Shown here piece after piece: positions 14,222-32,684 of a DNA stretch of 64,000 nucleotides. Every line of letters starts with the position of its first letter. The first letter of the stretch is position 1. The notes below the pieces were generated by a model. It was not told the origin of the DNA, made no database searches, and was given only the letters and a program-made list of their open reading frames with translations. A program made the position numbers and the translations under genes. Origin of the DNA: a virus (taxonomy: Duplodnaviria > Caudoviricetes); the IMG/VR virus record IMGVR_UViG_3300034073_002120; one strand, given 5' to 3'.

Positions 14222-15841
14222 TTAAACTGAAGCTAAATCTTTGATGTAAATCTTGCCGTAGAATTCTGGACGCACCATCTTCTTAGCGTAACGAGTCATA
14301 ACACCACGTCTTGGCGTGAAGTTAGTTGGGTCGTACACTAATGGAGTCATAATTAATGGAACGTATGGAGCATATACCGCACCAGTCTCTAAGAATGATG
14401 AACCTTTGAAACCTAACAATACTTCGTTAGATGTCATGTAAGGGTTCTTGTAAACTGTGTAACGAGATGCTAAAGAACCTACTTGAGAAACACCAGCTGC
14501 GAAAGATGTAGCATCTTTATCAGCATTAACTGTAAATCCTGGAATTGATTCTAAGATTGTAGCAACATCTGGAGATACAACGATGAAGTTTGCACCACCA
14601 CGTAATGTTAATTGGTGAATTTTGTTAGATACTTTGTTAATCTTAGTTCCTAAAGTTTGGAACCAAGTATTTTTTTGGTATGCCAATGAAGACGAACCTG
14701 CTGACCAAGTACCTGATGTAGAGTTGTACTCTTCACCGATAGTTGCTGACCAATAATCAGTTGTTAAAGCGTTTGCTTTTAACATATCTAAGATTTCTAA
14801 ATCGATTTCTAATGAAATGTATTCAGACAACATAGAAGTTAATTCAGCTTCAGCATCGATTGAGTGGTAAGCGTTTAAGTCTTGTGCCAACTCTGGTGTC
14901 CACACTGCTTTTAACTTACGAGTCTTAGCCACGATAGCCTCTGAACGTAATTCCAAATCAACTTCTGGAATAGCGATATCAGTTGCTGGTTCTGTTGGAG
15001 TAGCATCTTCGAAATCACCTCTTGTTGTAGAAGTTGGAGCCAAAGAATACTTAACTGTCAACGCAGTTTTAGTAGCTACAGTTGCAACTTTCGCGAAGAA
15101 AATTACGTTAGCACCAGAAACTTGTGAGAATTGTGGATAGAATGTATCTACATCAGCAAAACCAGATGCAGAGATGTGGAATGAACGAACTGCTTCATAA
15201 TCAGCTGCAGATGCAACGTTAGATTTTGCAATTGTAATCTTAGCAACTGCACCAGCTGCGATAGATGAAGATAATGCAGAATCATATCCAACTTCTGACC
15301 AAGATGCTGTTGCATATGTTTGGTTAGATGTAGAAACCGATACTGATTGGTCGTTGATTGTGTAAGAATATCTTCCTTCACCATAAAGACCGTTTACTGC
15401 TGCTTTAGTTCTACCGAAATCACCATCGAATGCAGAAGTTCCATTACCACCAAATAATGATTTACCATTAAATTTAGTATCACCTTGAACTGCTGTTCCG
15501 TATTTGAAATCTAGATAGAAGATAAGACCTGATGGTAAGTTCATTGGTTGAACTGAAACGAATTCTTTCGCTGCGATTTCACCAAAAATACGTCTTACCA
15601 ATGGTAATGCTACACCAGACCACTCTTCTGAACCTGCAGAAGTACCAGTTGCTGTTGCTTCATCCAATAATTGTTTAGCTTGGTTCTCTAATAGAACTGC
15701 TACTTGAGATTGCTCTCTTTCTTTTAAACCTTCTAAAAGACCAGTTTTTTCCCACTTATTCTTCAATTGACGTGTTTCAGCCAACATTACTGATTGTGGG
15801 TTCTTGCCTTCCATAAGTTTAGATAAATTAAAATTTGCCAT
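14222..15841 (-). CDS. Major capsid protein, T4 gp23-like
   Basis: KWEKTGLLEGL, VSVQPMNLPSGLIFYLDF, AKTRKLKAVWTPELAQDLNAYHSIDAEAEL and YAPYVPL...FTPRRGVMTRYA. SD AAGGAG. Confidence 0.97.
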   Translation of the reverse strand: MANFNLSKLMEGKNPQSVMLAETRQLKNKWEKTGLLEGLKEREQSQVAVLLENQAKQLLDEATATGTSAGSEEWSGVALPLVRRIFGEIAAKEFVSVQPMNLPSGLIFYLDFKYGTAVQGDTKFNGKSLFGGNGTSAFDGDFGRTKAAVNGLYGEGRYSYTINDQSVSVSTSNQTYATASWSEVGYDSALSSSIAAGAVAKITIAKSNVASAADYEAVRSFHISASGFADVDTFYPQFSQVSGANVIFFAKVATVATKTALTVKYSLAPTSTTRGDFEDATPTEPATDIAIPEVDLELRSEAIVAKTRKLKAVWTPELAQDLNAYHSIDAEAELTSMLSEYISLEIDLEILDMLKANALTTDYWSATIGEEYNSTSGTWSAGSSSLAYQKNTWFQTLGTKINKVSNKIHQLTLRGGANFIVVSPDVATILESIPGFTVNADKDATSFAAGVSQVGSLASRYTVYKNPYMTSNEVLLGFKGSSFLETGAVYAPYVPLIMTPLVYDPTNFTPRRGVMTRYAKKMVRPEFYGKIYIKDLASV

Positions 15842-15875: not shown

Positions 15876-16967
15876 TTATTTAATATTTGCTAACTTTTTA
15901 AATCTTTCAGCCATATCGTTTGATTCGTTGATAATTGCAGCCTTTGGTGCAGTTGAAGCAACTTTCTTAGATGCGAATGATTCAGTTATTTTGTTTGTTT
16001 TTACCTTCTTAGCAGTTCCACCGATTTTCATCGATTCAGCTAATGTTGCGAAAACTAATTTTACTTCTCTAACATTTTGTGTTCTGTCTAATGTTTCAAC
16101 AACTTTGTGTTTTTGTTCGTTTGTTAAATCATAAGAACGGAATAATTTGTTAGTGTAAAGTAACTTTGCGTTTAACAAGTTTACTTCGTTGATTGTAGAT
16201 TTCAAAGATTTGATTACTTTGTAAGCTTCTTCTAATTCTTGTTCCATTTCTGAAACTTTATCAGATTCTTCTTCTTCACCTTCTTCTACTGTCTCTTCAT
16301 CATCTCCGTATCCCATTTCACGTAAGATTTCTTCCAAGTCGATTTCGTCTTCTTCTGAAACTTCAGCTTCTGGTGCAACTTCTGCATCAACTGCAGGAGT
16401 TTCATCTTCTTCTGAAACTTCAGCATCAGCTGCTGGAGCTTCAACTTCATCTTCTTCTGAAACTTCGTCAGATTCAGCACCCAATTCATCTTCTAATTCT
16501 CTGATGATTGATTCTAAATCTAATTCGTCTTCATCTTCTTCTGCAATTGCACCCGTTGGGTCATCAATTACACCATCTTGGTTTTCATCTTCTTCACCTT
16601 CTGCAAGAGGCATATTTTCGTCCTCTTTACCTGGTTCAGCTGTTTCTTTTTCTGTGTCACCTAATTCAGTGTGAGCATCAGTTGCAATTCCTTGTGGTTC
16701 ATCACCATCAGTTCCACTACCATCTTGTCCTTCGCCTGCACCGATTTCTGATGAATCGTTTGCATCAACATCATCAGCACCATACTCTTCATTTACATCA
16801 GCTTCTTCCTCTTCACCTTCCATTTCTGCTTGAAGTTTCTTAGATAGAATTGATTGTAATCTCGGAGTAAAAGCTTCTTCTAATGCGATTTTAGCGTTAG
16901 CAATAGCAGTTTCACGTACGGCTTTAGCATCAGCAATTGCGTCTTTTAACAATTTTGAGTTTGCCAT
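15876..16967 (-). CDS. Prohead core/scaffold protein
   Basis: Highly acidic centre, coiled-coil termini and LNEVNLLNAKLLY motif, immediately upstream of MCP. Confidence 0.8.
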   Translation of the reverse strand: MANSKLLKDAIADAKAVRETAIANAKIALEEAFTPRLQSILSKKLQAEMEGEEEEADVNEEYGADDVDANDSSEIGAGEGQDGSGTDGDEPQGIATDAHTELGDTEKETAEPGKEDENMPLAEGEEDENQDGVIDDPTGAIAEEDEDELDLESIIRELEDELGAESDEVSEEDEVEAPAADAEVSEEDETPAVDAEVAPEAEVSEEDEIDLEEILREMGYGDDEETVEEGEEEESDKVSEMEQELEEAYKVIKSLKSTINEVNLLNAKLLYTNKLFRSYDLTNEQKHKVVETLDRTQNVREVKLVFATLAESMKIGGTAKKVKTNKITESFASKKVASTAPKAAIINESNDMAERFKKLANIK

Positions 16968-17037
16968 TTGTTTACTTTCCTTTACTTTTTTCTGAAAATA
17001 TTAAGGGAGATTTTCAATAGAATGTGTTAGGTTAGTT

Positions 17038-17110
17038 GTTCGGTCACCACTTATATAAAAGGGTATTCATTAACCAACATTTAATTTTAAATCCACAATA
17101 GAGGTGGATT
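17038..17110 (-). promoter_or_regulatory. Structured 5' leader of the scaffold/capsid operon (two hairpins)
   Basis: Hairpin AAUCCAC/GUGGAUU (17090-17110) and bulged hairpin GUUGGUU...GACC-G-AAC (17038-17078) in a 206-nt intergenic gap. Confidence 0.45.
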
Positions 17111-17173
17111 ATTTGAAAATAAATATATAAATGTTTATAGAAACATTAAATTTATATTACTTTTTTAAAAATT

Positions 17174-17476
17174 TTATTCAAAATTTTTATCTTTTTGGGG
17201 TTTTTGTTCGTCTTTACCCTTTTTCTTTCTTTTTTTAGTGAAAAAACGTATTGTTCTATCACCTTCTGCTATTTTTTGTAGAGCAACTCTTTTTTGTTCC
17301 TCTCTAACAGCTTTTTGTTTTTGTAACCTTCTTTTGGTTGTAGGTTTAACGTATTCTTTTCTTTCTCTTAATTCTAAAAGATGTCCAGATTCATTTACCT
17401 TCTTTTTGAATTTCTTTAAGGCCTTTGCAATGTCTCCATTACGAACCTCTACTGTAACTCTTGATAATCCGCTCAT
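17174..17476 (-). CDS. rpsU: Phage-encoded ribosomal protein bS21 with basic C-terminal extension
   Basis: V.VRNGDIAKALKKFKKKV...G.L.ELRERKEYVKPTTKRR is the bS21 signature. It sits inside the head module. Confidence 0.92.
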   Translation of the reverse strand: MSGLSRVTVEVRNGDIAKALKKFKKKVNESGHLLELRERKEYVKPTTKRRLQKQKAVREEQKRVALQKIAEGDRTIRFFTKKRKKKGKDEQKPQKDKNFE

Positions 17477-17534
17477 TAATTTAATTTAAATTGTTTTGTT
17501 GTAACTATTTGAGAATAAGTATGTCTTTTAAAAA

Positions 17535-18806
17535 TTATTTGCTTAAAAGGAACAATGCTTCTTCTGCTTCTTGTTGATTTTTAATTTTTGGGTCTTTATA
17601 CATATCAACTTTGTATCCTCTTAAAGCATTTGATAAAAATATCATATACTTAGGATGACCTAATTTCTCTTCTAACGCAGATAATGAATCATAAAACTTT
17701 TGTTCGTTTCCATTATTCATTTTTTCTGCAGTTTTATATTCATCTTTGTGATTATTGATATAAGATGCTTTAGAATCAGAATAACCATGCGCTGCTTCGT
17801 TTACTGATTCGAATAATCTAACTGAAAGAATAACATCATTACCGATTTTTAAGTTTCTTACTTTATTTCTTTCTAAATCGTATGATGGATTTATAGTTTT
17901 TGCTATAGCAATCACACCATTCTTAATAAAGTGTGGTTGAATACCTGAATAATTATCATCTCTAAACATAAATACATTTTCTGGATTATCCTTAGAAATT
18001 TTAATTAGTTTCATTAAACCTGTTTTACCGACATAACATCCACCTTCACATTTAGTTCCACCATAGGTTTTACCTTTTATAAATGATGTTTCATTTACTG
18101 ATTTTTCTTCTTTAATATATTTTACAGATGAATTTGAACCATCGGTAAAAAATACATTATCACCATCAATCATTTTTACTTTTCGTCTAAATGGTCCTTT
18201 TTTCCCCAATGCACCTTCCCAGTGTGGGTTGTCAACTTTAACCATTTGACCAACTTTGATTTCTTCGTTTACCGAATTACATCCACAATCAGTAGATTCT
18301 TTAATTGATTCATTTGTAGGTACACAATTGGGAACTTCTTTACCATCTTTCATTTTCATCCCAACTTGCTTGTATCCATCCCAACAAGGAGATGCTTCTT
18401 TAATACCCAAACGTTCTTTCATTTGGTCTTCGGAAATTTCACCAATTTTATAGTAACGAGATAGGATATGTCCCATATCTTCGTATAATCCATGTAATCT
18501 TTGGTCTAAGTTTTTTGCTTCAATTGCTACTTTATCAAATTGACTACCTAATTTCGCCAATTCACTCATATTTCTTTTCACAGTTTGTGCATCAAACCAA
18601 TCATCGGATTCGTTTACCGCTAATTCTCTAGCTGCTTCAGTAATTCCACCTAAAACTTCTGCGATTTCAGCAATATCAGATTTTCTATCCATCATTTCTT
18701 GATACTTGTTGTATGTAGAAACGATTTCTAAGAAATGTTTTTTTACTTCATTCGAAAATTTCTTTGGTTCTTCACCTTCTTTAACTATATTTGATAAACG
18801 TATCAT
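17535..18806 (-). CDS. Modular putative internal-head protein with repeated (E/K/N)SVNE junctions
   Basis: N-terminal MIRLSNIVKE, a CWDGYKQVGMK...VPNCVP module and three SVNE junctions. Confidence 0.6.
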   Translation of the reverse strand: MIRLSNIVKEGEEPKKFSNEVKKHFLEIVSTYNKYQEMMDRKSDIAEIAEVLGGITEAARELAVNESDDWFDAQTVKRNMSELAKLGSQFDKVAIEAKNLDQRLHGLYEDMGHILSRYYKIGEISEDQMKERLGIKEASPCWDGYKQVGMKMKDGKEVPNCVPTNESIKESTDCGCNSVNEEIKVGQMVKVDNPHWEGALGKKGPFRRKVKMIDGDNVFFTDGSNSSVKYIKEEKSVNETSFIKGKTYGGTKCEGGCYVGKTGLMKLIKISKDNPENVFMFRDDNYSGIQPHFIKNGVIAIAKTINPSYDLERNKVRNLKIGNDVILSVRLFESVNEAAHGYSDSKASYINNHKDEYKTAEKMNNGNEQKFYDSLSALEEKLGHPKYMIFLSNALRGYKVDMYKDPKIKNQQEAEEALFLLSK

Positions 18807-18824
18807 TCTCTCTCCTACTATTAT

Positions 18825-19784
18825 TTATTTTTGAAATGCTTTGATGATTCCTTGTGCAAATTTGTTTCCCGGTTTACCAACAATTGCAGTTGATATATCC
18901 ATTCTATTACTTAATGTCTTTGGACCTTTGATTTTAAGGTATGCTAATAATTTTCTATCATCTATGTTATTATCATCGATAAATTTCTTAACAGCTTGAG
19001 TTCTCAACCCAGTTAAGTTAGCAATTTCTTCTACTTCTGATTCATTCACCATTTTAGTTAATGAAATTCTACCTTCTTTGTTTAAAGCCTTCATATAAGG
19101 TTTATTATCAAATATAGATTGAATTGTGTCTGCCTCTTTATGGAATCCATTCATTCTTAATGTAAATGCAATACCATCTGCAGCTTGAACACCATCCCAA
19201 CCTGATGATTGTGATACGTTTCTTCCAAATTCATGTGCGTTATCATCACCATTCCAATATTCCGAACTATCTACACCATTGGTTCTTATATCTGCCATCT
19301 TTTCTTTATACTTAGGGTCATCCATTTTAGGATAATCCACTCTCTTAGCCCATTCAGGCTTTCCTTCAATCTTTGAAATCAATTCTCTCGCCTCATCATG
19401 AAAGTTTGCATCAGTTAAAGCCTCAACTGCTGCTTTTATCATTGTTTTCTTATATCCATCATTACCCAACTTTTGTGGAGTAATTCCAAATTCTTCTGCT
19501 TTCTTTTTAGCCTCTTTATTTACTTGAGGATTACCTGGTCTTTTCTTTGGTTGTGTTGCAGTTGGTTCTGATTTTGGTTCACCGGATGGTTTATTAAAGA
19601 TATTCACCTTTGGGGTTTCACTACCTTTAGAATTGGAATCTCCTTTATCTTTTATAGGATTATGAGTTCCTGCTTTGATTGCATTATCTCTACTATCTTT
19701 TGATTTGAATACAGATGTTTTACCACTTGCTTTGTTTGTAGCAGTAAATGTTTCTGCTTCTAAAAGTAAATTTTTTAATTTCAT
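18825..19784 (-). CDS. Modular putative internal-head protein
   Basis: N-terminal MKLKNLLLE. The first module is paralogous to a module in 21030..21689. Confidence 0.6.
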   Translation of the reverse strand: MKLKNLLLEAETFTATNKASGKTSVFKSKDSRDNAIKAGTHNPIKDKGDSNSKGSETPKVNIFNKPSGEPKSEPTATQPKKRPGNPQVNKEAKKKAEEFGITPQKLGNDGYKKTMIKAAVEALTDANFHDEARELISKIEGKPEWAKRVDYPKMDDPKYKEKMADIRTNGVDSSEYWNGDDNAHEFGRNVSQSSGWDGVQAADGIAFTLRMNGFHKEADTIQSIFDNKPYMKALNKEGRISLTKMVNESEVEEIANLTGLRTQAVKKFIDDNNIDDRKLLAYLKIKGPKTLSNRMDISTAIVGKPGNKFAQGIIKAFQK

Positions 19785-19802
19785 TTCGTTATTTCCTTAT
19801 TA

Positions 19803-20243
19803 TTAAAATCCAATTGATACTGTTTTACTATCAAACTCTATCCAACGTATTTTCATTGCAATTAAGTCTTTCAAATCAGATGTGTCCATTCTCCAATTAG
19901 GTTCTGACATTTGAATATCAACAATATTACCATGTATACCATCCCAAATTGTGATAATCTTACCACCAAAAAACTTTACAAAAGCATTTACTTGCTTTTG
20001 TTTAGTAGAATCTAATTCGTTAAATTTAATTTCAGAAGCTTCTTTAATTAAAGATTTACCTTCTGTCATTATAGTTTTATGAGTATAAAGGTCTAATTTA
20101 CCATCTTCCTTTATCTTCACATCGTAGTTAGTCTTACGAATATCGTTATGACCACCCTTATATGGTGTATCACCCACTTCTTTCTTAATACTACCTAACT
20201 CTATCTTATTATTCTTTAAATAATCTTGTATGTTAAATGCCAT
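19803..20243 (-). CDS. Hypothetical head-module protein
   Basis: ORF track. SD AAGGA and internal MTE/IKE sites. Confidence 0.6.
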   Translation of the reverse strand: MAFNIQDYLKNNKIELGSIKKEVGDTPYKGGHNDIRKTNYDVKIKEDGKLDLYTHKTIMTEGKSLIKEASEIKFNELDSTKQKQVNAFVKFFGGKIITIWDGIHGNIVDIQMSEPNWRMDTSDLKDLIAMKIRWIEFDSKTVSIGF

Positions 20244-20254
20244 AATTATTTCCT

Positions 20255-20848
20255 TTATGATAATTCAGTAATGATTTCTCTCATAAGGTCTTGTGCCTTA
20301 CAAAAATCACCACAAACTATTGCTTGTTCTTGTAATTGTTTATTTACGGATTCGTTCATCGGTGTCATAAATGCACCATGAGTAGATGGGTTTGATACGA
20401 AATCCCAACCAATTAGTTCGAAATCTTCACCTACTTTCACCTTACCCTCTCCCATAGGAGTTACTGAGCCCATACCACGAGAAGAAATACCTAATAGGAT
20501 TCCTGCTCTTAACAATTCTTTTAATATATTACCAGATGGAGTTGGTAAAATTTCTACTGTCCCGCATAAATCATTACCTTCCCACCAAATTTCTCTTATA
20601 TTGTGTGAAACGTTCTTTAAGTTGATTACTGATGAATCTGGGTGGTCTAATTCTCCTAATGCTCTTCTCTCTTTAATAAGAGTTTCATATTTTTTAGCTT
20701 CTCTTTGTAAGATTTCTAAAGGATATACTCTACCATTTTGATTTTCAGCAACAGCTCTTTGCAAAACACCTTTAACCAGTGTTCTACCTGATGCATCTTC
20801 GTTGATTCTACCTTCAAATAGGTTTGTTTCAATTAATAAATTTTTCAT
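20255..20848 (-). CDS. Prohead protease (T4 gp21/S77-like); start moved from TTG 20860 to ATG 20848
   Basis: ALGELDHP, VSHNI, GISSRGMGS and WDFVSNPSTHGA. ATG 20848 overlaps the upstream stop (TAATG). Confidence 0.93.
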   Translation of the reverse strand: MKNLLIETNLFEGRINEDASGRTLVKGVLQRAVAENQNGRVYPLEILQREAKKYETLIKERRALGELDHPDSSVINLKNVSHNIREIWWEGNDLCGTVEILPTPSGNILKELLRAGILLGISSRGMGSVTPMGEGKVKVGEDFELIGWDFVSNPSTHGAFMTPMNESVNKQLQEQAIVCGDFCKAQDLMREIITELS

Positions 20849-21024
20849 TATGCTCCCCAAACGTTTCTTTTCTTAAATAAATCGAAAAATATTGCAGAAA
20901 CTTCTTTGCGAATAATATCTCTAATAAGTTTTTCATCCTCACTAGTGATTTCTTCGTTTACAAATCCCCATTTTACTTTAAGGATTTCTTCGTCAATTAT
21001 TTCTAACAATCTTTTCTTAGTCAT
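20848..21024 (-). CDS. 58-aa protein translationally coupled to the prohead protease (missed by the ORF track)
   Basis: Hand translation gives MTKKRLLEIIDEEILKVKWGFVNEEITSEDEKLIRDIIRKEVSAIFFDLFKKRNVWGA. It fills the gap exactly, with a TAATG overlap. Confidence 0.75.
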   Translation of the reverse strand: MTKKRLLEIIDEEILKVKWGFVNEEITSEDEKLIRDIIRKEVSAIFFDLFKKRNVWGA

Positions 21025-21029
21025 TGTTG

Positions 21030-21689
21030 TTATTTTAATTTTAAACTGCGTTGTGCATTAGTTAAACCATCAATAATTGATTGTAATCCTTTTTTAACAC
21101 CATCAGTATCTCTATCTTTAACTCTTTTATCTAAAATTTTTGTATTTGCTTTTAGAAAGTTAATGATTGCGTTTTCGGTTGCACCCCAATTAATATCTTC
21201 TGCCTCATTTACTGATTCTTTTGTGAATATATTAACACCAGTTCCTTTTGATGTGGATGATTTCTTTTTAGGGGTATTCTCTGATGGAGTAAAAGTTCCT
21301 CGTTTAATAGCGGCATCTCTATGTGCTTTGTCTTTAAACATAACAACTTTACCGGTTTCCTTGCTTCTAGCACTATAAGTCATTAATTCATTTATAGATT
21401 CATCTGCTTTTTTACCAGCTCTTAAATCTGCTAAATCATCACCCTCAATATCACCATCACTATCTACATCCAATTCCTTTTGTCCACCTACCAATTCTTC
21501 GTTCTTTTCACCTTTACCATTCCAAGCAGAATCTATTTTATCAAAGAAAGCTTTCTTTTCTTCTTCGGACATATCTGGTATTGATTTACCTGCTTTATCT
21601 AATGCTTTTTGAAAGAATTGTTGGTATTCTGTTTCTTCTACCATCACTTCTTTTACAATTTCTTTTAATCTTGCTCTTGATATTTTCAT
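21030..21689 (-). CDS. Modular putative internal-head protein (ESINE/ESVNE junctions, EF-hand-like DVDSDGDIEGDD)
   Basis: MKISRARLKEIVKE N-terminus, ELDVDSDGDIEGDDL motif and two junctions. Confidence 0.6.
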   Translation of the reverse strand: MKISRARLKEIVKEVMVEETEYQQFFQKALDKAGKSIPDMSEEEKKAFFDKIDSAWNGKGEKNEELVGGQKELDVDSDGDIEGDDLADLRAGKKADESINELMTYSARSKETGKVVMFKDKAHRDAAIKRGTFTPSENTPKKKSSTSKGTGVNIFTKESVNEAEDINWGATENAIINFLKANTKILDKRVKDRDTDGVKKGLQSIIDGLTNAQRSLKLK

Positions 21690-22390
21690 TATTTTTCTAT
21701 CTCCTGTATTGTTTTTGCAATATTGATTAATCTCTCTTTTATTTTATAAATATGACCGTGAGTTCTTTTCCAAAAACTATCAGATGATAATTCGTTCATC
21801 GTTTTAATTTGATTATACCAACGAAAAAACTTTTCAACTTCACTTAATTGATATTTTAATTCTCTCAACCCAACTGCTAACTTTTTATTAGCATGCATTG
21901 TTTCATCATTTTTTAATTCTAACCAACGATTTACAGGTCTTTTTGATTTACCTTCGTTTACCGATTCTTTGATTTTTCTTTTTTGTTGAATTATTTGTTG
22001 GATTTGTGAAAATATAGATTGTATATCTTTATCTAATTGTTTCTCATCGGCACTCATCGGTGATTCAATATCTACATTAGAATAAAGTTTTTTCTTTTTA
22101 GCAATTAATACATCTACTTTTTTAATTAAATCGTTTCGTACTTTATCTAAATCTTTTACAATTTCAGATGCTGTTGCTTCATTTACCTCATCAATATCTT
22201 TAACCTTCGTATATCCAGTCACTTCTATATTTGAATCTGCCTTTTCTTTATCTTGTTTTCTCTTGTCTGAAAATGCAAAAGGAGTCTGATACCCATCGAC
22301 ATTACCTGTCGCATTAGATTCATCTAACTCCTCTTCGATTTCTTTAATAAGTTCGTCTATGTACGATTTAAGATTTTCTTTCTTTAACAT
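21689..22390 (-). CDS. Putative head-module protein with a cassette between DEVNE and ESVNE
   Basis: ELDESNATGNVDGYQTPFAF motif, and a C-terminal helical domain ending YKIKERLINIAKTIQEI. Confidence 0.6.
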   Translation of the reverse strand: MLKKENLKSYIDELIKEIEEELDESNATGNVDGYQTPFAFSDKRKQDKEKADSNIEVTGYTKVKDIDEVNEATASEIVKDLDKVRNDLIKKVDVLIAKKKKLYSNVDIESPMSADEKQLDKDIQSIFSQIQQIIQQKRKIKESVNEGKSKRPVNRWLELKNDETMHANKKLAVGLRELKYQLSEVEKFFRWYNQIKTMNELSSDSFWKRTHGHIYKIKERLINIAKTIQEIEK

Positions 22391-23240
22391 TTTTTATTTC
22401 CTTTATCAATTCATATGACATCATCAAAGCAGAAACTTGTTCATCAGTAACTTTCTTACCAACCTTTTGCTGTTTCATTACGTTGATAGTTTCTTTTAAT
22501 TTAATCTTTGTGATTTTATCATTAACTTCTGAATAAAGTTTATGTAATTCCGTTACAACAACCTTCAATTTAGAATCATAATATTCACCAAATTTAGAAG
22601 TATTGTTTACGTTGTTAATATACTCTCTTAAAATATCCTTTTGGTCATCATTTAAGTTTGTATATTTCTTGTTAAATGTTTCAACAAGAATCTTATATGT
22701 TAATAATCTTAAATCTTTCTCTTGTTTTCTATAATCTTCTAACAACTTATCTTCTTTTTGTTTCAAAGATGGTGTTGTACTTGATATATGTTCGATTAAC
22801 GTTAATTTAGCATCAAATACGTCTTTAACATTAGTTACATCTTGTACTTTTGCTTCAAATATCTTATGAACAGATGCTAATACTTTGTAGTTAGATACAG
22901 GTGATGATAAGAATGAATCTAATTCAAAATTCTCTTTTATTGCTTTAACAAGATTATACTTTTCTCTTGCTAATTTTGTTTCATCCAATTTTGTACGAGT
23001 TTCTATAATAGCATCAATATACTTTTCTGCTTTAGATTCAGAATTATATTTTTCGTTTACCAATAAATTGAATAAACGTAATTCTTTAGCCATTTCAGTT
23101 TTTCCACCAAAAAATTCTTGCACGATTTTTTTAGCTTTTTCTTCAGGTGCGTTGTTTAATATTTCCAACGTTATTTGACGTGTTAATAACTCAAATAGGA
23201 ATCCTGTATTTTTGAATTTCGAATGTTTTATTTTTCTCAT
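22368..23240 (-). CDS. Conserved helical protein downstream of the portal
   Basis: MRKIKHSKFKNTGFLFELL N-terminus and SD AAGGA. Confidence 0.7.
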   Translation of the reverse strand: MRKIKHSKFKNTGFLFELLTRQITLEILNNAPEEKAKKIVQEFFGGKTEMAKELRLFNLLVNEKYNSESKAEKYIDAIIETRTKLDETKLAREKYNLVKAIKENFELDSFLSSPVSNYKVLASVHKIFEAKVQDVTNVKDVFDAKLTLIEHISSTTPSLKQKEDKLLEDYRKQEKDLRLLTYKILVETFNKKYTNLNDDQKDILREYINNVNNTSKFGEYYDSKLKVVVTELHKLYSEVNDKITKIKLKETINVMKQQKVGKKVTDEQVSALMMSYELIKEIKNVKERKS

Positions 23241-23300
23241 TTGTTAATCCTTATTTTGATAGACTCAAAATTTCTGTATATAAATATTAAAAATTATAAG

Positions 23301-25048: not shown

Positions 25049-25471
25049 TTACCATTTTCTGCAAGACCAATATCTAGCTTTTGTTCTTGGACCTGGTTGG
25101 TCACAATTATGTCTTGCTCTAAAAGATTTTCTTCTTTCAGGATTATTTTTCTTAATGTTCATTCCCGGTTGACCGAAATTTACTTTAACTACTTTTCCTG
25201 TCTTTGGGTTTTTAACATAAACTTTAAACTTCTTAACATCACCTTGCATTGGTTTACCCAATTTCACTTCTCTACCTTGATATTCCGCTTCGTAAACACA
25301 ATTACAATTTGCTTCTTGTAATTCGGTTGTGTAAGATTTTAGAAAATTTAAAAAATCTTCTTCATCTTCATCTTCCACATCTAATTCATCGTAATCCAAA
25401 AAATTGTGTTCTGGTTGGTCAAATGGATAATCTTCCACTTCCTCTTTGATTATGTTTTTTAACTTTATCAT
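25049..25471 (-). CDS. Small basic phage protein with RRKSFRARHNC...ARYWSCRKW domain and acidic N-terminal propeptide
   Basis: The motif is common in large myovirus head modules. N-terminal MIKLKNIIKE. Confidence 0.65.
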   Translation of the reverse strand: MIKLKNIIKEEVEDYPFDQPEHNFLDYDELDVEDEDEEDFLNFLKSYTTELQEANCNCVYEAEYQGREVKLGKPMQGDVKKFKVYVKNPKTGKVVKVNFGQPGMNIKKNNPERRKSFRARHNCDQPGPRTKARYWSCRKW

Positions 25472-27824: not shown

Positions 27825-30800
27825 TTAGTAAAAAATACCCAAAAGTTGATTTAATGATGCGAACGCACCAGTTAGTTTGAACGTTTGTCCGTTGTATATG
27901 AATACAATACCTTCAATTGGAACTATTTTAGATGGTCCACCGATTGCATTCAATCTTTTTAATTCTAATTTTAATTTTTCTATTTTTTTAGGGTCACCAC
28001 TTGCTTCTACATCTTTGATAGTTTGGTCTAATCTCTTTTTCATATCTCTAACAGCCTTGTCAGGATTTACTGTCAATACTGATGATGTGAATTGTAGAAC
28101 TTCTGCACCTACTCCTAAGAAAATATCTTCGAATTTCATTAGATTATCTTTTGCAATTCCTTTTTGGTCTTCCTTATCCATCTTAGTTGCCCAAGCAAGT
28201 GTTTTCTCATCCACAATTGTATTCTTATCAATACGGAATCCTTTATCACCGAATGCCCATCTCTTTACCAATCCAATTTTAGTGGTATTATCTAATGTTG
28301 ATGGTGATTTTTTATCTACATAGTTTTCCCACCACGCTTGATGATATTCAGCAACACCGGCAGTATCACCTAATCCAAATTCTTTTTGTAATTTAGATAT
28401 TTTAGCAAGATACTTTGGTTTCTTAGATGAAAGGTCTTGTGATTTCGGTAATTTTAATACAGGTGGTCCTTGTAAAGTGTAATTATCTTGTACATTCTGT
28501 TCGATTTGTTTAATCATACCACCCAATACTCTACCTGCTTCTGCAGATTCACCTACTGCGTTACCACTTTCATCATACTCCATAGTTCCGTGAAATACTA
28601 ATAAAGGTTGACCATATGGTATAACGTTTACCGATGTTGGGTATATCACCTCAATATTCATAAAACATGCACCATTCTTAAAAATCTTTTCTTTTTGTTT
28701 ATCTGATAGTGATGATATAGCCTTTGTTAAATCTTTCATTGCAAAGTTATATGCTTTTTCTAATTCACCTCTTCCAGCAAACTTAGTAGCAACACCACTA
28801 ATATCTAATGCATTTGCACCTCTATTTGCTAAGTGTGATTTATTACGAGCTGCAACTAACTTACCATTTACCCAACTGATTGCTAATGCCTGTCCATCGG
28901 TCTTCTCTCTAGCTAATTCTAAATTACCTTCTAATGCACGATTTACAATATCTTTTAATTGACCAAATGTTAAATTGATTTCAGTATCAAATGGATGATT
29001 CATATGTCCATATGCACCACCTTCATTTATTATTACTTCTTTTACTGGTTCATATCCTCTATCTTCATCATCTTTTGTATCAGTTTGATGACCAGGTTGT
29101 TTTTTTCTTTTATCATCAAAATCAATTGTATCTAATTCTGCAGGATGTCCATAATCCGGTGCATATGTAGAGGTTTTGTGATGATGCATAAAATTATGCT
29201 CAACATCAGTTTCTGCTTTATGATTTTTTGAATTTATTGATTCAAATGCTTTAGGTGTTTTTACTTTATACCAACCACCACCAGGAGTTCTAAATATTCT
29301 AGCAGGTATTTCTAATACCCCGTTTGCAGGTAATTTAGAACGATATTTACTATCTATATGAACTACTTTAGTTATGAATACTTTTGTTTTATTATTTGAA
29401 CCCAATAATTCAACTTCTATTTTAACCGGTTGACCACCAATTTTTATAGTTCCTGCAAATATTTCACCCTTAGTAAGTTCATTTATATCATCATCTTCTA
29501 AATCTGGTTGTCCTGAATCTTTTGTTGGGAAATTGGTTTTACCTCTATATTTGTTTGGATTAGTTCCGATTGCAGTATGGTAATCCCAACCAGTTCCATA
29601 GTTAAAACTTTGTGGAACTCTACCTTCTTCAATTGATGCTAGGTTTGTATAATATTTTGGGTCTTCAAAAAGATGGTCTAACGCTATTTCCTTTGCAACA
29701 TCACTATCAGTTGTATGTTCTCTTTCAACTTTATATCCTTTTTTGAACTCATCGGTTATATCTTCAATTGATACATTATGTTTTGTAGCAATATCACTTA
29801 AAGATAATCCTTTTGCCAATCCGCCAGGTATTTTATCCACTTGAACTGCAATTTCAACGGAAAGAGTTGGGTTAGATGTTTTGAAATCATCCTTTCTCAT
29901 TACTGTTTTTGCAATAATTTGATTTGCTTGTTTAACAAATGGAATGTTTATATCATATCTCTTGTCTTTAACAACAATTTGATTATACTTTTCTAAAAAC
30001 TCTTTAAATTCTTTTTTATGACGTGCTAATCTCTTAAAAAATCCTGTCAATTCTGGTTCTGATATTTCTTTACCATTACGAGTATCATTTACTCTATCAA
30101 AGAAGTGTTTAGTAAATTCAATATCTTCTGGTGATAGTTGTTTCTCTGCATATTTCTCAATTTGATTTAATTGAGAATGACTCATTTCGGATACATTTTG
30201 TTTTTCGTTGTACGAATCTATTGCTTTCTCCATTACATCTGCAGGAATTTCCATATTTTCTAAACCATCTGCTATTTTATCTGAAAATAACATAAGTAAT
30301 CGTTCTTCTTCATTTACATCTGCAAATAATGCTGCTTTTCCTGCTCCCATTGCTAATGTTTCTGCAATAATATGAGGAACAAACTCTACTGCCAAATGTT
30401 GTGCAAATGGTAAAACTCCATGTGATAATCCACCGGTTGCGATTCCAAAAATTGCTGTGGTGACTATTTTTTTACCAACATCAACTAATGCTTTTTTCTC
30501 ATCTTCCGATACACCTTTACCACTTACAAAATTAGCAACACCTTTACCTGCTGTTTTAAATAAATGTGCTTCATGTTTAAGTCCATGAACAATAGCATTT
30601 CTAGCACCCTTTGTTTTATCTCTTAATGCCTCACCCCAACTTCTACGTTCATCCGATTTTGGTTTATCCTGATGTTTTGTAAAGAATTCTTTTTCTTTTT
30701 CTGCCCAACCACTAATCTTTCTTTTTAAATTCTTTACACTATACTTTGAAACATCAGCACCACCATCTTCTGGTTCCGAACCTTTATTAAATACACCATC

Positions 30801-32684
30801 ATAATCCATTACTTTCACCGGTAATTTCTTACCATACGCAGTAAATGACATTAAACGAGTATTTCCTGCAACTAAATGTAAATCACCATTTTTATCTCTT
30901 AAAGCAATTGGTGGTGGAACGTTATTTCCTTTTTGAATACCTTTTTCTAATCTATTCCAATCCTTACCATATTCATCTGCAAGTTCTTTACCTCTTGCTT
31001 TCATAGCATTAGAACCACCTTCTTCACTTGCAGAAAGAATTTCACCAACATCGGTATTACTCATATTCTGCATATCTTCGGATGATAAGTAAATAGGTTT
31101 TGCTGCTTTCATTTTCTGAATCATATCTGTTTCATCTTTGAAAGCATTTGGTGCAACGTTTTTAGTTACATCATTTTCAAAATATTCACCAGTCTCACCT
31201 TGATATTCTTCATCACTATAATCTCTAATATTTTTTACCTTTGCACGGTCATCATCTAAGATTTCCCAACCATCTTTCCCACTTGTCCAATCTTCTTTTG
31301 GTTTAGCAGGTTGTTGTTTAACACTTTTGTCGTGTTTAAACATATCTGCACCTTGTATTGCTTGACCAGTTGGTTTTGTTTTTTGTGTAGAAGGTTTATC
31401 TGATTTTAATTCAATATATTTACCACTATCATCTTTTTCAAATGTAGGTGCGTTTTGGTCTTTCTCCTTACCTTTCTCTTTATACTTTCCATACCCAACG
31501 TGCACGTATTTATCATCGTCATTTCCTTCCAATAAATCTAATAATTGAGAATACTCACTAATTAGTTCTTCTACTATATCTTTCTTTTTAGCTTTTTGTT
31601 TTTTCACTTTTATTTTCTCTACTGGTTTTGTTACATCAATATCAGATGGTGCATATGGATATGTTGTTGCTTCAAAATCCGCTCTTGCGTTGTTTTTTGA
31701 TTTAATTTTAAATGTGAATTGGTCTTCATCATCTTTAGCAAATATTGCATCTGCTTTTGGAAAATCAGTTTGAGTATATCCGCCTCTTACAAACCACTCA
31801 TCACTACTATTTACACCATCATCTGCACCTAATTTACGTTTTTTACCTTTTGGTAAATAACCACCATCTGGTTGCGAATCTTCACCACCACTTGCTATAG
31901 CAGTTTCGTTAAAAATATTTTGTTTTGGTATTATTCTGAATGTGGTTGCTTTTTTACCATTTATAGTTGGCATTCCATGTTCATCTTTACCGATTGATTT
32001 CACTACTACTTTTTTATTTTTGAATTTACCCATTAAGACAGTATCACCAATATTGACATCCATCGTAATATCTTCATTTATTGATTCGCCTAACTTTGCT
32101 AATTTAAGTGTAATGAATTTGTAGATTGTTTCATCAAATTTTGGATATGCTTTTAAGAAATTTTTTCTCTTTTCATCATCACTACCTTTACTTAACCAAT
32201 TACGAACATCAGTTCCACTAACTGCGTTTGGTTGAGCAGGTGAAGCATAAACGTATCCTTTATCTTTATACCCAAATTCAATTTTACCTTTATATTTTTC
32301 AAAGTATTTACCACCCAAACGTTGTTTGTCTTTTTCACCAACAACAGTTATAAATCCAGTTGTAGTTTCATCGAAATTTTTAAGTATTTCAGTAGGAGCA
32401 TAAGGATTCTTAACCTCAACTATTTTGTTTGATGGAATACCAAACATTTTAGTCATTATGGTTTTCTTTTCCTTAAAATTAAATGGTGATTTTTGATTAT
32501 CGGTTTTATTAGATGTACCGATATACACTCTATCCTTACCAAACTTTTTTACAAGTCCTTGATAAGTTGCAAGGTGACCTTTGTGAAATGGTTGAAATCT
32601 ACCTGAATATACTACAACAAAATCTTTTAACTCCTCTTCGGTTAAAAGTATTTGTTCCATCAGATATTTACTTAATTCATTCAT
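27825..32684 (-). CDS. 1619-aa multidomain protein: HIGH-family cytidylyl/nucleotidyltransferase, ParB/Srx-like, DUF5661-like and C-terminal KxDG-containing domains
   Basis: YSGRFQPFHKGH; PPPIALRDKNGDLHLVAGNTRLM; TKHFFDRVND.RN; VEREHT.D..VAKEIALDHLFEDPKYY; EGGAYGHMNHPFD...REKTDGQAL. Confidence 0.7.
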   Translation of the reverse strand: MNELSKYLMEQILLTEEELKDFVVVYSGRFQPFHKGHLATYQGLVKKFGKDRVYIGTSNKTDNQKSPFNFKEKKTIMTKMFGIPSNKIVEVKNPYAPTEILKNFDETTTGFITVVGEKDKQRLGGKYFEKYKGKIEFGYKDKGYVYASPAQPNAVSGTDVRNWLSKGSDDEKRKNFLKAYPKFDETIYKFITLKLAKLGESINEDITMDVNIGDTVLMGKFKNKKVVVKSIGKDEHGMPTINGKKATTFRIIPKQNIFNETAIASGGEDSQPDGGYLPKGKKRKLGADDGVNSSDEWFVRGGYTQTDFPKADAIFAKDDEDQFTFKIKSKNNARADFEATTYPYAPSDIDVTKPVEKIKVKKQKAKKKDIVEELISEYSQLLDLLEGNDDDKYVHVGYGKYKEKGKEKDQNAPTFEKDDSGKYIELKSDKPSTQKTKPTGQAIQGADMFKHDKSVKQQPAKPKEDWTSGKDGWEILDDDRAKVKNIRDYSDEEYQGETGEYFENDVTKNVAPNAFKDETDMIQKMKAAKPIYLSSEDMQNMSNTDVGEILSASEEGGSNAMKARGKELADEYGKDWNRLEKGIQKGNNVPPPIALRDKNGDLHLVAGNTRLMSFTAYGKKLPVKVMDYDGVFNKGSEPEDGGADVSKYSVKNLKRKISGWAEKEKEFFTKHQDKPKSDERRSWGEALRDKTKGARNAIVHGLKHEAHLFKTAGKGVANFVSGKGVSEDEKKALVDVGKKIVTTAIFGIATGGLSHGVLPFAQHLAVEFVPHIIAETLAMGAGKAALFADVNEEERLLMLFSDKIADGLENMEIPADVMEKAIDSYNEKQNVSEMSHSQLNQIEKYAEKQLSPEDIEFTKHFFDRVNDTRNGKEISEPELTGFFKRLARHKKEFKEFLEKYNQIVVKDKRYDINIPFVKQANQIIAKTVMRKDDFKTSNPTLSVEIAVQVDKIPGGLAKGLSLSDIATKHNVSIEDITDEFKKGYKVEREHTTDSDVAKEIALDHLFEDPKYYTNLASIEEGRVPQSFNYGTGWDYHTAIGTNPNKYRGKTNFPTKDSGQPDLEDDDINELTKGEIFAGTIKIGGQPVKIEVELLGSNNKTKVFITKVVHIDSKYRSKLPANGVLEIPARIFRTPGGGWYKVKTPKAFESINSKNHKAETDVEHNFMHHHKTSTYAPDYGHPAELDTIDFDDKRKKQPGHQTDTKDDEDRGYEPVKEVIINEGGAYGHMNHPFDTEINLTFGQLKDIVNRALEGNLELAREKTDGQALAISWVNGKLVAARNKSHLANRGANALDISGVATKFAGRGELEKAYNFAMKDLTKAISSLSDKQKEKIFKNGACFMNIEVIYPTSVNVIPYGQPLLVFHGTMEYDESGNAVGESAEAGRVLGGMIKQIEQNVQDNYTLQGPPVLKLPKSQDLSSKKPKYLAKISKLQKEFGLGDTAGVAEYHQAWWENYVDKKSPSTLDNTTKIGLVKRWAFGDKGFRIDKNTIVDEKTLAWATKMDKEDQKGIAKDNLMKFEDIFLGVGAEVLQFTSSVLTVNPDKAVRDMKKRLDQTIKDVEASGDPKKIEKLKLELKRLNAIGGPSKIVPIEGIVFIYNGQTFKLTGAFASLNQLLGIFY

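What the first reader, a model, noticed from the sequence alone, without database searches (positions are those of the whole stretch)
17535..22390. Head-module proteins are cassette polyproteins joined by a conserved ESVNE linker
Seen: (E/K/N)S(V/I)NE or DEVNE recurs at 17796, 18090, 18264, 21204, 21387, 21953, 22178 and 32073, with a similar 15-bp DNA core GAATC(A/G)GTAAA(C/T)GAA. It separates unrelated-looking modules. Many N-termini look alike (MIRLSNIVKE, MKLKNLLLE, MIKLKNIIKE, MKISRARLKEIVKE). Established: T4 gp21 cleaves after hydrophobic-X-Glu, and T4 internal proteins use a short N-terminal capsid-targeting peptide ending in Glu. Inference: these are packaged precursors that the protease at 20255-20848 cuts into small cargo proteins. 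The linker DNA may also act as a micro-homology for inserting new cargo modules, giving an expandable ejected-payload system.
Basis: partly seen in the sequence, partly recalled or inferred. Interest (0 to 1): 0.75.

Follow-up and report, generated by a model that had tools for sequence, protein, structure and literature searches.

The report
Swappable cargo cassettes in phage head proteins
In a large uncultured freshwater phage, several head-gene proteins are chains of small unrelated basic modules joined by one 15-base linker that reads as a capsid-protease cutting site and is also where modules are gained, lost and swapped between closely related strains.

Summary
All eight reported sites exist. 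S(V/I)NE occurs 6 times in 1,889 aa of head-module proteins against 0.1 expected. In 80 related IMG/VR loci the motif bounds 48 unrelated cassette families (median 82 aa, 96% with pI above 8.5). These sit in different host proteins and in different numbers, 0 to at least 5 per slot.

The linker is conserved as DNA: GAA TCA GTA AAC GAA G. Val is GTA in 66 of 67 sites against 47% elsewhere in the same genes, and conservation stops sharply at about 16 nt.

Contigs from four freshwater metagenome studies share a ~98% identical backbone. They show an in-frame cassette swap and a cassette deletion, each with both breakpoints at linkers.

Cleavage is inferred, not shown. The protease is a T4 gp21-type enzyme (Pfam S77). 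One orthologous junction keeps hydrophobic-X-Glu in 66 of 67 variants. The capsid protein, scaffold and protease carry such sites at the expected places. Unrelated head-module ORFs share a 9-10 aa leader ending in L-X-E, like the T4 capsid-targeting sequence.

Verdict: an in-frame cassette array for probable capsid cargo. It is a new variant combining T4 internal-protein targeting with linker-mediated shuffling. Packaging, cleavage and ejection are untested. This scan also flagged the same stretch in another reading (e1-5339666).

The parts
17535..18806 (-). P423. It has a leader MIRLSNIVKE and a helical N-domain that is a stand-alone 154-aa gene in relatives. A CWDGY..VPNCVP mini-domain follows, then cassettes M3 (18090-18263) and M4 (17796-18089), and a C-terminal module (17538-17795).
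   Evidence: M4 occurs inside P233 orthologs of L009, L010 and L013. M3 is replaced by 201 other bases in run X9.
17796..17810 (-). Linker ESVNE; exact consensus 15-mer GAATCAGTAAACGAA.
18090..18104 (-). Linker KSVNE (AAATCAGTAAATGAA). It is the lower-coordinate breakpoint of the cassette swap seen in run X9.
18264..18278 (-). Linker NSVNE. It is the higher-coordinate breakpoint of the cassette swap seen in run X9.
18825..19784 (-). P319. Leader MKLKNLLLE is followed directly by the FTATNK..AIKAGTH mini-module, which is also the internal cassette of P219. There is a looser site, MVNE, at aa 248.
20255..20848 (-). gp21-type prohead serine protease. The N-terminus MKNLLIE|T and the C-terminal MNE|SVNK fit its own predicted site.
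   Evidence: T4 gp21 has LIE-9 near its N-terminus (PMC9026906).
21030..21689 (-). P219. A conserved N-domain, then linker ESINE (21387-21401), one 61-aa cassette (21204-21386 including its ESVNE linker at 21204-21218), then a C-terminal module.
   Evidence: The cassette is absent in L006 and in runs X5, X8, X9 and X13, with joints at the two linkers.
21689..22390 (-). P233. A conserved N-domain (..TGNVDGYQTPFAF..), then DEVNE (22178-22192), one 75-aa cassette (21953-22177 including ESVNE at 21953-21967), then a conserved C-domain (KRPVNRWLELKND..).
   Evidence: The same cassette is 96% identical inside a P1619 ortholog of L044.
25049..25471 (-). P140. Leader MIKLKNIIKE plus a small conserved C-terminal domain. 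The L006 ortholog carries the CWDGY mini-domain.
27825..32684 (-). P1619. A cytidylyltransferase-like N-domain ends at ESINE (32073-32087). In Microcystis phage Mel-JY01 the two end domains are adjacent in a 639-aa protein.
15659..15667 (-). Predicted maturation site L-D-E|A of the major capsid protein (after residue 61). It is invariant in relatives.
   Evidence: The analogy is with T4 gp23 cleavage after L/I-X-E (PMC9026906).
15876..16967 (-). Acidic scaffold protein rich in hydrophobic-X-Glu sites (DVNE, TINE, IINE).
   Evidence: enrichment z = +5.9.

Best explanation
The head module of this uncultured, probably Bacteroidota-infecting, T4-core phage encodes carrier proteins whose bodies are in-frame arrays of small, basic, mutually unrelated cargo cassettes. 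Each cassette ends in a 15-16-nt element, GAATCAGTAAACGAA(G), that reads Glu-Ser-Val-Asn-Glu.

The element appears to do two jobs.

1. As peptide it is a V/I-N-E|A/G site for the gp21-type prohead protease. A chain carried into the prohead core, by its N-terminal CTS-like leader or by a conserved core-protein domain, would be cut into separate small proteins. These would stay with the DNA and probably enter the host.
2. As DNA it is a short direct repeat. Cassettes are deleted, inserted and exchanged in frame between repeats, within and between genes and between phage genomes.

Shown by comparison: the cassette architecture, the nucleotide-level conservation of the linker, and recombination breakpoints at the linkers. 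Inferred: cleavage, packaging, ejection, cargo function (DNA-associated or anti-defence, by analogy with T4 internal proteins), and whether the linker drives recombination mechanistically or only marks the events that survive.
For: Motif excess:
- 6 observed against 0.1 expected in the head module.
- The 15-mer occurs 6 times against 0.28 expected.

Cassette architecture in 80 related loci:
- The P233 family has conserved N- and C-domains with 0 to at least 5 unrelated inserts between them, each ending in ES(V/I)NE.
- There are 48 cassette clusters, mostly singletons.
- The same cassette sits in different host proteins (P423 and P233; P233 and P1619; P219 and P319) with different neighbours.

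Recent events:
- In run X9, window 18104-18262 (53 codons) is replaced by 201 nt (67 codons) between two linkers.
- Runs X5, X9 and X13 skip 21200 to 21387, and X8 skips 21213 to 21397. That is 61-62 codons between two linkers, on ~98% identical flanks, in four studies.
- The linker is shorter than the usual de Bruijn word size, 31 for Logan by my recollection, so these joints are unlikely to be repeat mis-joins.
- Nucleotide HSP ends against L003, L004 and L009-L013 fall on linkers.
- 316 of 1,802 high-identity homology breakpoints lie within a few residues of the strict motif, against 61 expected.

DNA-level conservation across 90 cluster-level independent sites:
- Val = GTA in 66/67 (p = 3e-20).
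- Ser = TCA in 66/83 (p = 4e-15).
- Asn = AAC in 63/91 (p = 2e-10).
- P5 Glu = GAA in 78/78.
- There is no signal outside about 16 nt.
- The same genes outside linkers use GTA 47%, TCA 34% and AAC 34%, and the highly expressed capsid gene prefers TCT.
- A cultured relative with 53% capsid identity (Flavobacterium phage immuto) has the same 15-mer with one mismatch.
- The exact 17-mer is in frame as ESVNEA in 130 of 131 IMG/VR matches, and 86 of 111 loci have a core head gene nearby.

Support for cleavage:
- The protease is Peptidase_S77, and T4 gp21 cuts after L/I-X-E (PMC9026906).
- The junction before the P233 C-domain is [VILM]-X-E in 66 of 67 unique orthologs while P2 varies (N, S, D, A, T, K).
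- The capsid protein has an invariant LLDE|A. The protease has LLIE|T and MNE|S. The scaffold has IINE/IIAE/IISE|S.
- P1' is Ala or Gly in 51 of 90 sites.
- The leader M(I)KLxxLLxE occurs on 26 unrelated clusters of head-module ORFs.
- Cassettes are basic: median pI 9.55, against 5.5 for other proteins.

Horizontal cassette transfer:
- Cassette nt identity is 97.9% against 82.6% for the protease gene (L012/L058).
- It is 86.7% against 78.3% for the window cassette and L044.
Against: - There is no proteomic or biochemical evidence that any of these proteins is in the virion or is cut.
- Linker-joined polyproteins also occur outside the head module. Examples are P1619 beside the terminase genes and an 823-aa P-loop protein about 115 kb from the head genes in a complete relative. 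They have no CTS-like leader, so capsid entry is unclear.
- The P233 and P219 carriers also lack the MIKL leader.
- Hydrophobic-X-Glu is not significantly depleted inside cassettes (z = -0.8).
- Several breakpoints in P319 (19217-19341 and 19581-19662) and at P219 aa 64 are not at canonical linkers.
- 15 nt is short for RecA/UvsX-type homologous exchange. Survival of only in-frame, site-preserving recombinants could mimic a mechanistic preference.
- Cassette families were clustered by BLAST only, so remote homology among 'unrelated' cassettes cannot be excluded.
- The AlphaFold model of P423 was too poor to show domain boundaries.
Confidence: 0.62

Rival explanations
1. The linker is only a recombination joint. 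It would be a short coding repeat that permits in-frame domain shuffling, and the multi-module proteins would work uncut as long multidomain proteins. The match to hydrophobic-X-Glu would be incidental.
For: - Synonymous-site conservation shows that selection or homogenisation acts on the DNA.
- Linkers occur in proteins with no obvious capsid-targeting leader and outside the head module.
- No cleavage data exist.
- Cyanophage proteins string the same mini-domains together without ESVNE.
Against: - At the orthologous P233 junction the DNA and the P2 residue vary, yet P3 stays hydrophobic and P1 stays Glu in 66 of 67 variants, including cassette-free forms that lack the canonical 15-mer. That is a protein-level constraint matching gp21 specificity.
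- The same pattern ends the N-terminal leaders.
- It also sits at the canonical capsid, scaffold and protease sites.
- P1' prefers Ala or Gly.
Confidence: 0.15
2. The linker is only a protease site. Cassette turnover would happen by ordinary illegitimate or flanking homologous recombination. Breakpoints would appear at linkers because only in-frame, site-preserving products survive. The codon conservation would reflect recent copying of linkers along with cassettes.
For: - 15 nt is short for homologous exchange.
- Some breakpoints lie at looser hydrophobic-X-Glu sites or elsewhere.
- Cassette-free junctions work with many different codons.
Against: - Protein-level selection cannot hold GTA at 66/67, TCA at 66/83 and the rarer AAC at 63/91 across 90 non-homologous cassettes.
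- Conservation ends abruptly at the linker edges with no residual similarity in flanks. This argues against simple recent co-duplication.
- The 15-mer persists, with one mismatch, in a phage with only 53% capsid identity.
Confidence: 0.13
3. The 15-16-mer is the target of a dedicated enzyme, such as a homing or site-specific nuclease or a recombinase, that mobilises cassettes in an integron-like way. The coding reading would be secondary.
For: - The element is sharply bounded, strand-specific and highly conserved.
- Cassettes move between genes and between genomes.
- Arbiol et al. raised the same possibility for PeSL elements of T4-type phages (PMC2839356).
Against: - No candidate enzyme was looked for systematically or noticed next to the arrays.
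- The element has no dyad symmetry.
- Degenerate copies (1-2 mismatches) are common and still mark boundaries.
- T4-type recombination and replication machinery is known to use short homologies (PMC2839356).
Confidence: 0.08
4. Chance recurrence or assembly artefact.
For: None beyond the short length of the motif.
Against: - 0 of 20,000 shuffles reach the observed count.
- More than 119 independent IMG/VR stretches carry the exact 17-mer, and 130 of 131 matches are in frame.
- The linker is present in a cultured phage genome.
- The joints were seen in four independent studies.
Confidence: 0.01

Closest known systems
T4 internal proteins (IPI, IPII, IPIII), Alt and the capsid targeting sequence, processed by gp21
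   Same: - The protease is gp21-type (S77).
- Sites are hydrophobic-X-Glu followed by Ala or Gly.
- A ~10-aa N-terminal leader ending in such a site sits on otherwise unrelated proteins.
- The cargo is small and basic.
- The repertoire is hypervariable.
- The review PMC9026906 suggests the CTS is an evolutionary device for loading varied proteins into capsids.
   Different: - Here many cargo units are concatenated in one reading frame behind a single leader or core-protein domain, rather than one gene per cargo.
- The inter-unit site is a fixed 15-nt DNA element conserved at synonymous positions.
- The leader has no sequence similarity to the T4 CTS.
- No experimental evidence of packaging exists.
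Proteolytically matured inner-body and ejection proteins of phiKZ, 201phi2-1 and SPN3US
   Same: - A diverged gp21 homologue cuts many head proteins after X-X-Glu motifs (S/A-X-E, A-X-E).
- Some substrates are cut at several sites (PMC9026906, PMC10052503).
   Different: - In those phages the multiple cuts mainly remove propeptides.
- No array of unrelated, swappable modules is described there.
- No nucleotide-conserved linker is described there.
Polyvalent proteins of phages and conjugative elements (Iyer et al. 2017, PMC5512222)
   Same: - Many unrelated domains are combined in one polypeptide.
- The genes lie near portal and terminase genes.
- The proteins are predicted to be packaged, delivered with the DNA and released by peptidase action.
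- Architectures are highly variable.
   Different: - The characteristic domains (zincin-like metallopeptidase, MuF, ART, helicases and others) were not detected here.
- The protease is a separate gene.
- Modules are mostly ~80-aa ORFans.
- Domain junctions carry a conserved DNA linker, a feature not described for polyvalent proteins: 'linker' occurs 0 times in that paper.
PeSL-mediated modular shuffling in T4-type phages (Arbiol et al. 2010, PMC2839356) and integron cassettes
   Same: - Short conserved repeats flank variable units.
- Closely related genomes differ by insertion, deletion or replacement of a unit, with crossovers in the repeats.
- An excised unit carrying one repeat could re-enter at any other repeat.
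   Different: - PeSLs are ~100-bp intergenic promoter and stem-loop elements that move whole genes.
- Integrons use attC sites and an integrase.
- Here the repeat is 15-16 nt, lies inside coding sequence, keeps the reading frame and doubles as a peptide signal.
- No circles and no enzyme have been shown.

Membership tests
Substrates of a T4 gp21-type (Peptidase S77) prohead protease | A gp21-family protease gene lies in the head module. | tested here: met
   PF03420 E = 5e-28, 98 bits against a 27-bit cut-off; phrog_207 E = 4e-51.
Substrates of a T4 gp21-type (Peptidase S77) prohead protease | The site conforms to L/I(V)-X-E followed by a small residue. | tested here: met
   All linkers read V/I-N-E. 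P1' is Ala or Gly in 51 of 90 sites. The orthologous junction keeps [VILM]-X-E in 66 of 67 variants. The rule is taken from PMC9026906.
Substrates of a T4 gp21-type (Peptidase S77) prohead protease | The peptide bond is actually cut during head maturation. | not testable with these tools
   No virion or metaproteome data are available. No proteomics on the cultured relative immuto was found.
CTS-targeted internal head proteins (T4 IP type) | A short N-terminal targeting peptide, removed at a protease site, is shared by otherwise unrelated proteins. | tested here: inconclusive
   A shared 9-10-aa leader ending in L-X-E occurs on 26 unrelated clusters and is restricted to the head-gene neighbourhood. 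It has no sequence homology to the T4 CTS and its function is untested. The P233 and P219 carriers lack it.
CTS-targeted internal head proteins (T4 IP type) | The protein is present inside the capsid and injected with the DNA. | not testable with these tools
   Only indirect evidence: gene position between the portal and capsid genes, and basic pI.
Polyvalent proteins (Iyer et al. 2017) | Multiple (2-15) unrelated domains in one polypeptide, encoded by a phage near its packaging genes. | tested here: met
   Up to 6 motif-bounded modules per protein. P1619 lies next to the terminase genes.
Polyvalent proteins (Iyer et al. 2017) | Hub domains of the class are present: zincin-like MPTase, MuF, ART, ParB/DarB-type enzymes, or an embedded peptidase. 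| tested here: not met
   Pfam and PHROG scans of 17 long carriers gave only CTP_transf_like, DUF5661, DUF3008 and sub-threshold hints. No embedded peptidase was found.
Repeat-mediated cassette shuffling (PeSL or integron type) | Variable units are flanked by a conserved repeat, and near-identical genomes differ by unit gain, loss or replacement with junctions in the repeats. | tested here: met
   Repeat conservation at synonymous sites is shown.
Repeat-mediated cassette shuffling (PeSL or integron type) | The repeat is an intergenic regulatory element (PeSL) or an attC site served by an integrase (integron). | tested here: not met
   The repeat is intragenic, in frame and 15-16 nt long, with no stem-loop or promoter. 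No integrase was examined.

The most novel reading that the evidence does not exclude
This would be an intragenic, integron-like capture system. A 15-16-nt coding repeat would serve both as the recombination site that lets a phage lineage draw in-frame protein cassettes from a large shared pool, and as the protease site that later frees each cassette inside the capsid. One targeting signal would then load an evolvable, strain-specific cocktail of injected proteins. The repeat's synonymous-site conservation would be maintained by selection for cassette mobility, possibly with a dedicated enzyme.
Probability: 0.4. Interest if true: 0.9.

Novelty: new variant of a known kind. Interest (0 to 1): 0.8.

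Why it matters
- It would show how a virus builds and rapidly re-assorts a payload of injected proteins, most of them ORFans. Strains that are 98% identical elsewhere differ at these slots, which is the signature of an arms-race locus.
- It predicts exact mature protein boundaries for dozens of unknown proteins, which makes them testable as anti-defence or DNA-condensing factors.
- The lineage is abundant in lakes: more than 600 IMG/VR contigs match the protease, and the linker is found in many studies.
- A short sequence selected at once as peptide signal and as recombination site would be an unusual case of dual coding that constrains synonymous sites.
- A leader plus ESVNE linker could be a natural design for loading several proteins into a capsid from one gene.

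Tried and rejected
- No whole genome is held for the window, so genome-wide linker distribution was taken from a complete 252-kb relative instead.
- AlphaFold2 of P423 with a 27-row alignment gave mean pLDDT 49. Only the N-terminal helical hairpin and the CWDGY beta-hairpin were modelled. The model was not used for fold search.
- Pfam and PHROG scans of carriers and cassettes gave almost nothing. The MC1, ParB, anthrax-toxin-middle-domain and EF-hand hints were all below threshold and are not relied on.
- tblastn of a cassette-free P233 ortholog against cultured phages found no match, so a link to T4 gp67 or gp68 could not be tested.
- Depletion of hydrophobic-X-Glu inside cassettes, as a signature of protease exposure, was weak. 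Cassettes gave z = -0.8 against +4.5 in other ORFs. This is reported as inconclusive.
- A broad all-HSP breakpoint test gave only 2.5-fold enrichment because BLAST ends are fuzzy. The high-identity version gave about 5-fold.
- A literature search for 'ESVNE' found nothing relevant, and none was found for immuto virion proteomics.
- The R-S-E ADP-ribosyltransferase look of the Mel-JY01 388-aa protein was not supported by Pfam.
- Translational codon selection was rejected as the cause of linker codon bias.

Full report
**What the window is.** All genes in the region lie on the minus strand of a 30% G+C phage genome. The head module runs as follows:

| Coordinates | Gene or ORF |
|---|---|
| 14222-15841 | gp23-type capsid protein |
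| 15876-16967 | acidic scaffold |
| 17174-17476 | ribosomal protein bS21 |
| 17535-18806 | P423 |
| 18825-19784 | P319 |
| 19803-20243 | P146 |
| 20255-20848 | gp21-type protease (Pfam S77) |
| 20848-21024 | P58 |
| 21030-21689 | P219 |
| 21689-22390 | P233 |
| 22368-23240 | P290 |
| 23301-25037 | portal |
| 25049-25471 | P140 |
| 25519-27105 | large terminase |
| 27825-32684 | P1619 (1619 aa) |

- The nearest cultured relatives are Flavobacterium phage immuto and Microcystis phage Mel-JY01, at 53-54% capsid identity.
- That paper describes the conserved terminase-portal-protease-capsid block 'and some hypothetical proteins' but does not analyse those proteins.
- More than 600 IMG/VR contigs encode a close relative of the protease, and some contigs reach 230-250 kb.

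- S[VI]NE is 60-fold over-represented in the head-module proteins: 6 against 0.10 expected, and 0 of 20,000 shuffles reach 6.
- The 15-mer with up to 2 mismatches occurs 6 times in the window against 0.28 expected, always on the coding strand.
- The similar N-termini are also real.

**The motif bounds mobile modules.**
- I called ORFs in 80 related loci and compared them with the window's proteins.
- The P233 family is the clearest case.
  - A conserved ~70-aa N-domain and a conserved ~87-aa C-domain are separated by nothing, or by one to at least five mutually unrelated inserts.
  - Each insert ends in ES(V/I)NE.
  - The ortholog in L003 lacks exactly the 75 residues between DEVNE and ESVNE of the window protein.
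- Cutting all accessory proteins at the strict motif gives 77 fully bounded segments, which fall into 48 clusters, mostly singletons. One representative per cluster gives a median of 82 aa.
- Several clusters occur in different host proteins.
  - The window's P423 cassette M4 lies inside P233 orthologs of L009, L010 and L013, with different neighbours on both sides.
  - The window's P233 cassette is 96% identical to a cassette in the P1619 ortholog of L044. There it sits directly before the C-terminal GGAYGHM domain, bounded by KESVNE and KESINE.
  - The FTATNK..AIKAGTH mini-module follows the N-terminal leader in P319 and follows ESINE in P219.
- High-identity homology breakpoints lie within a few residues of the strict motif 316 times out of 1,802, against 61 expected. 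Many of the remainder sit at variants such as ESISE, ESTNE or MVKE.

**Recent events in nature.**
- Fourteen public runs hold half or more of the sampled words of window 17000-23300.
- I laid contigs of four runs from four studies on the stretch.
- On flanks with about 2% differences, one X9 contig replaces 18104-18262 (53 codons, the body of cassette M3) with 201 other bases (67 codons). The two joints are at the linkers at 18090-18104 and 18264-18278.
- Runs X5, X8 and X13 have loose ends at the same two places, with different continuations. Several alleles therefore occupy this slot.
- Runs X5, X9 and X13 join 21200 to 21387, and X8 joins 21213 to 21397. This removes the 61-62 codons between the ESINE and ESVNE linkers of P219.
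- The repeat is 15 nt. That is shorter than the 31-letter words that, by my recollection, Logan's contigs are built from (the tools state 31 only for the run index), so repeat mis-joins are unlikely.
- Nucleotide alignments to the closest IMG/VR loci give the same picture.
- Not every breakpoint is at a linker. P319 has variable stretches at 19217-19341 and 19581-19662, and P219 has a recurrent break near aa 64-68. In other strains the loose sequence at that P219 break reads ESVKE.

**The linker is conserved as DNA.** I took one site per preceding-cassette cluster, about 90 sites in largely non-homologous contexts.

| Position | Codon at linker | Count | p value |
|---|---|---|---|
| P5 Glu | GAA | 78/78 | 1.6e-6 |
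| P4 Ser | TCA | 66/83 | 4e-15 |
| P3 Val | GTA | 66/67 | 3e-20 |
| P2 Asn | AAC | 63/91 | 2e-10 |

- The consensus is GAA TCA GTA AAC GAA G, and information content drops to background immediately outside these ~16 nt.
- P5 Glu (77/90) and P1' Ala/Gly (51/90) were not part of the search pattern.
- In the same genes outside the linkers, GTA is 47%, TCA 34% and AAC 34%.
- The highly expressed capsid gene prefers TCT and splits GTA and GTT evenly, so translational selection does not explain the bias.
- Flavobacterium phage immuto has GAATCAGTAAATGAA and GAATCATTAAACGAA in its 841-aa protein; Mel-JY01 does not.
- The exact 17-mer GAATCAGTAAACGAAGC hits at least 119 IMG/VR stretches. Of 131 matches, 130 lie in frame as ESVNEA within open frames of 100 aa or more (median 399 aa). 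Of 111 loci, 86 have a core head gene nearby.
- In a complete 252-kb relative, three of six copies lie in an 823-aa polyprotein about 115 kb from the head genes.

**Why I think it is also a protease site.**
- T4 gp21 cuts after L/I-X-E. Its substrates include a 10-residue capsid targeting sequence on otherwise unrelated internal proteins, and gp21 itself has LIE near its N-terminus (PMC9026906).
- Diverged homologues in phiKZ and SPN3US cut after S/A-X-E and A-X-E.
- Here the junction before the P233 C-domain is [VILM]-X-E in 66 of 67 unique orthologs, while P2 ranges over N, S, D, A, T and K.
- Cassette-free forms never use the canonical ES[VI]NE (0 of 27), against 17 of 40 cassette-bearing forms (Fisher p = 3e-5, sequences not independent).
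- So the protein-level requirement looks like the gp21 rule. The full ESVNE/15-mer is a mark of the mobile cassette.
- The capsid protein has an invariant LLDE|A just upstream of the conserved fold. The protease starts M-x-x-LLIE|T and has MNE|SVNK near its C-terminus. The scaffold ends with IINE/IIAE/IISE|S.
- The leader M(I)KLxxL(L/I)(N/K)E heads 66 of 417 accessory ORFs from 26 unrelated clusters. Outside that set it heads only the P140 family, beside the portal gene.
- Cassettes are basic: median pI 9.55 and 96% above 8.5, against a median of 5.5 for other proteins. The capsid-packaged, injected T4 internal proteins are the functional analogy (PMC9026906).
- None of this is direct evidence of cutting or packaging.

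**How it most likely works.**
1. A carrier enters the scaffolding core through its leader or through a conserved core-protein domain (inferred).
2. The protease cuts at every exposed V/I-N-E|A/G, releasing ~80-aa basic proteins that remain with the DNA (inferred).
3. Because every cassette carries the same 15-16-nt repeat in the same frame, recombination or replication slippage between repeats deletes cassettes. Exchange between co-infecting genomes, or re-entry of an excised unit, adds or swaps them without breaking the frame or the sites.
   - The pattern of junctions is shown.
   - The mechanism is inferred by analogy with PeSL-mediated shuffling and the short homology needs of T4-type recombination (PMC2839356).
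4. Two cassette pairs are more similar than the very conserved protease gene of the same genome pairs: 97.9% against 82.6%, and 86.7% against 78.3%. One of these pairs sits in different host genes. This indicates horizontal cassette transfer.

**Comparison with known systems.** It works like the T4 internal-protein and CTS system, and like polyvalent proteins. It shuffles like PeSL or integron cassettes. It differs from each.
- The cargo is concatenated in frame rather than encoded one gene per cargo.
- The hub domains of polyvalent proteins are absent.
- The repeat is intragenic and doubles as a peptide signal.
- I found no description of this in the searchable literature.

**Limits.**
- Cleavage, packaging and ejection are untested.
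- The carriers outside the head module have no evident targeting signal.
- 'Unrelated' rests on BLAST clustering only.
- The hydrophobic-X-Glu depletion test was inconclusive.
- The structure prediction failed.

Noticed in passing
window 17174-17476 (-): A ribosomal protein bS21 gene (Pfam E = 4e-15) sits among the putative cargo genes of the head module. Chen et al. 2022 (PMC9723584) raise the possibility that phage bS21 is itself encapsidated. The protein contains KVNE|S, which may be chance.
   Followed up: partly
window 27825-32684 (-); L002 212-2131: The 1619-aa protein has a cytidylyltransferase-like N-domain and a GGAYGHMNHPF..KxDG C-domain. These two domains are adjacent in the 639-aa Mel-JY01 homologue. 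About 1,000 aa of modules (DUF5661 and a phrog_23027 region) are inserted between them here, starting at ESINE.
   Followed up: partly
window 18319-18396 (-); L084 2221-3234; L085 2455-3771: The CWxGYK..G..VPNCV mini-domain of P423 matches T4-like cyanophage genes at 78-86% nucleotide identity over ~70 nt. In Synechococcus phage S-BM3 it lies in a 338-aa protein next to the small terminase gene. That protein strings together several Lys- and Cys-rich mini-domains also seen in P140 and in the 823-aa protein of L083, but without ESVNE linkers.
   Followed up: partly
L083 3564-6035 (complete 252-kb relative G001): An 823-aa polyprotein lies far from the head genes, next to a subtilase-like gene and a repeat-rich fibre-like gene. 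It has a P-loop N-domain (weak zeta-toxin hit) followed by cassettes joined by ESVNE. One cassette also occurs in a P233 ortholog (L064).
   Followed up: partly
L002 11398-12564 (Microcystis phage Mel-JY01): A 388-aa protein between bS21 and the scaffold gene has an R..STT..ExE-like pattern reminiscent of ADP-ribosyltransferases such as T4 Alt. Pfam gave no hit, so this is unverified.
   Followed up: partly
window 18825-19784 (-), about 19217-19341 and 19581-19662: P319 has Lys/Asp/Pro-rich low-complexity stretches that differ between near-identical strains. The breakpoints are not at canonical linkers.
   Followed up: no
window, minus-strand ORFs outside the head module (e.g. 56151-61283, 2-3649): The window's proteins contain long poly-Thr runs (TTTTT 37 times) and many SGSSQ/VSGS repeats. 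I did not locate which ORFs carry them; they are probably fibre-like proteins.
   Followed up: no
L006 11064-13307: The FTATNK..AIKAGTH mini-module gives a sub-threshold Pfam hit to the archaeal chromatin protein MC1 (E = 2e-4). This is a hint of DNA binding only.
   Followed up: no
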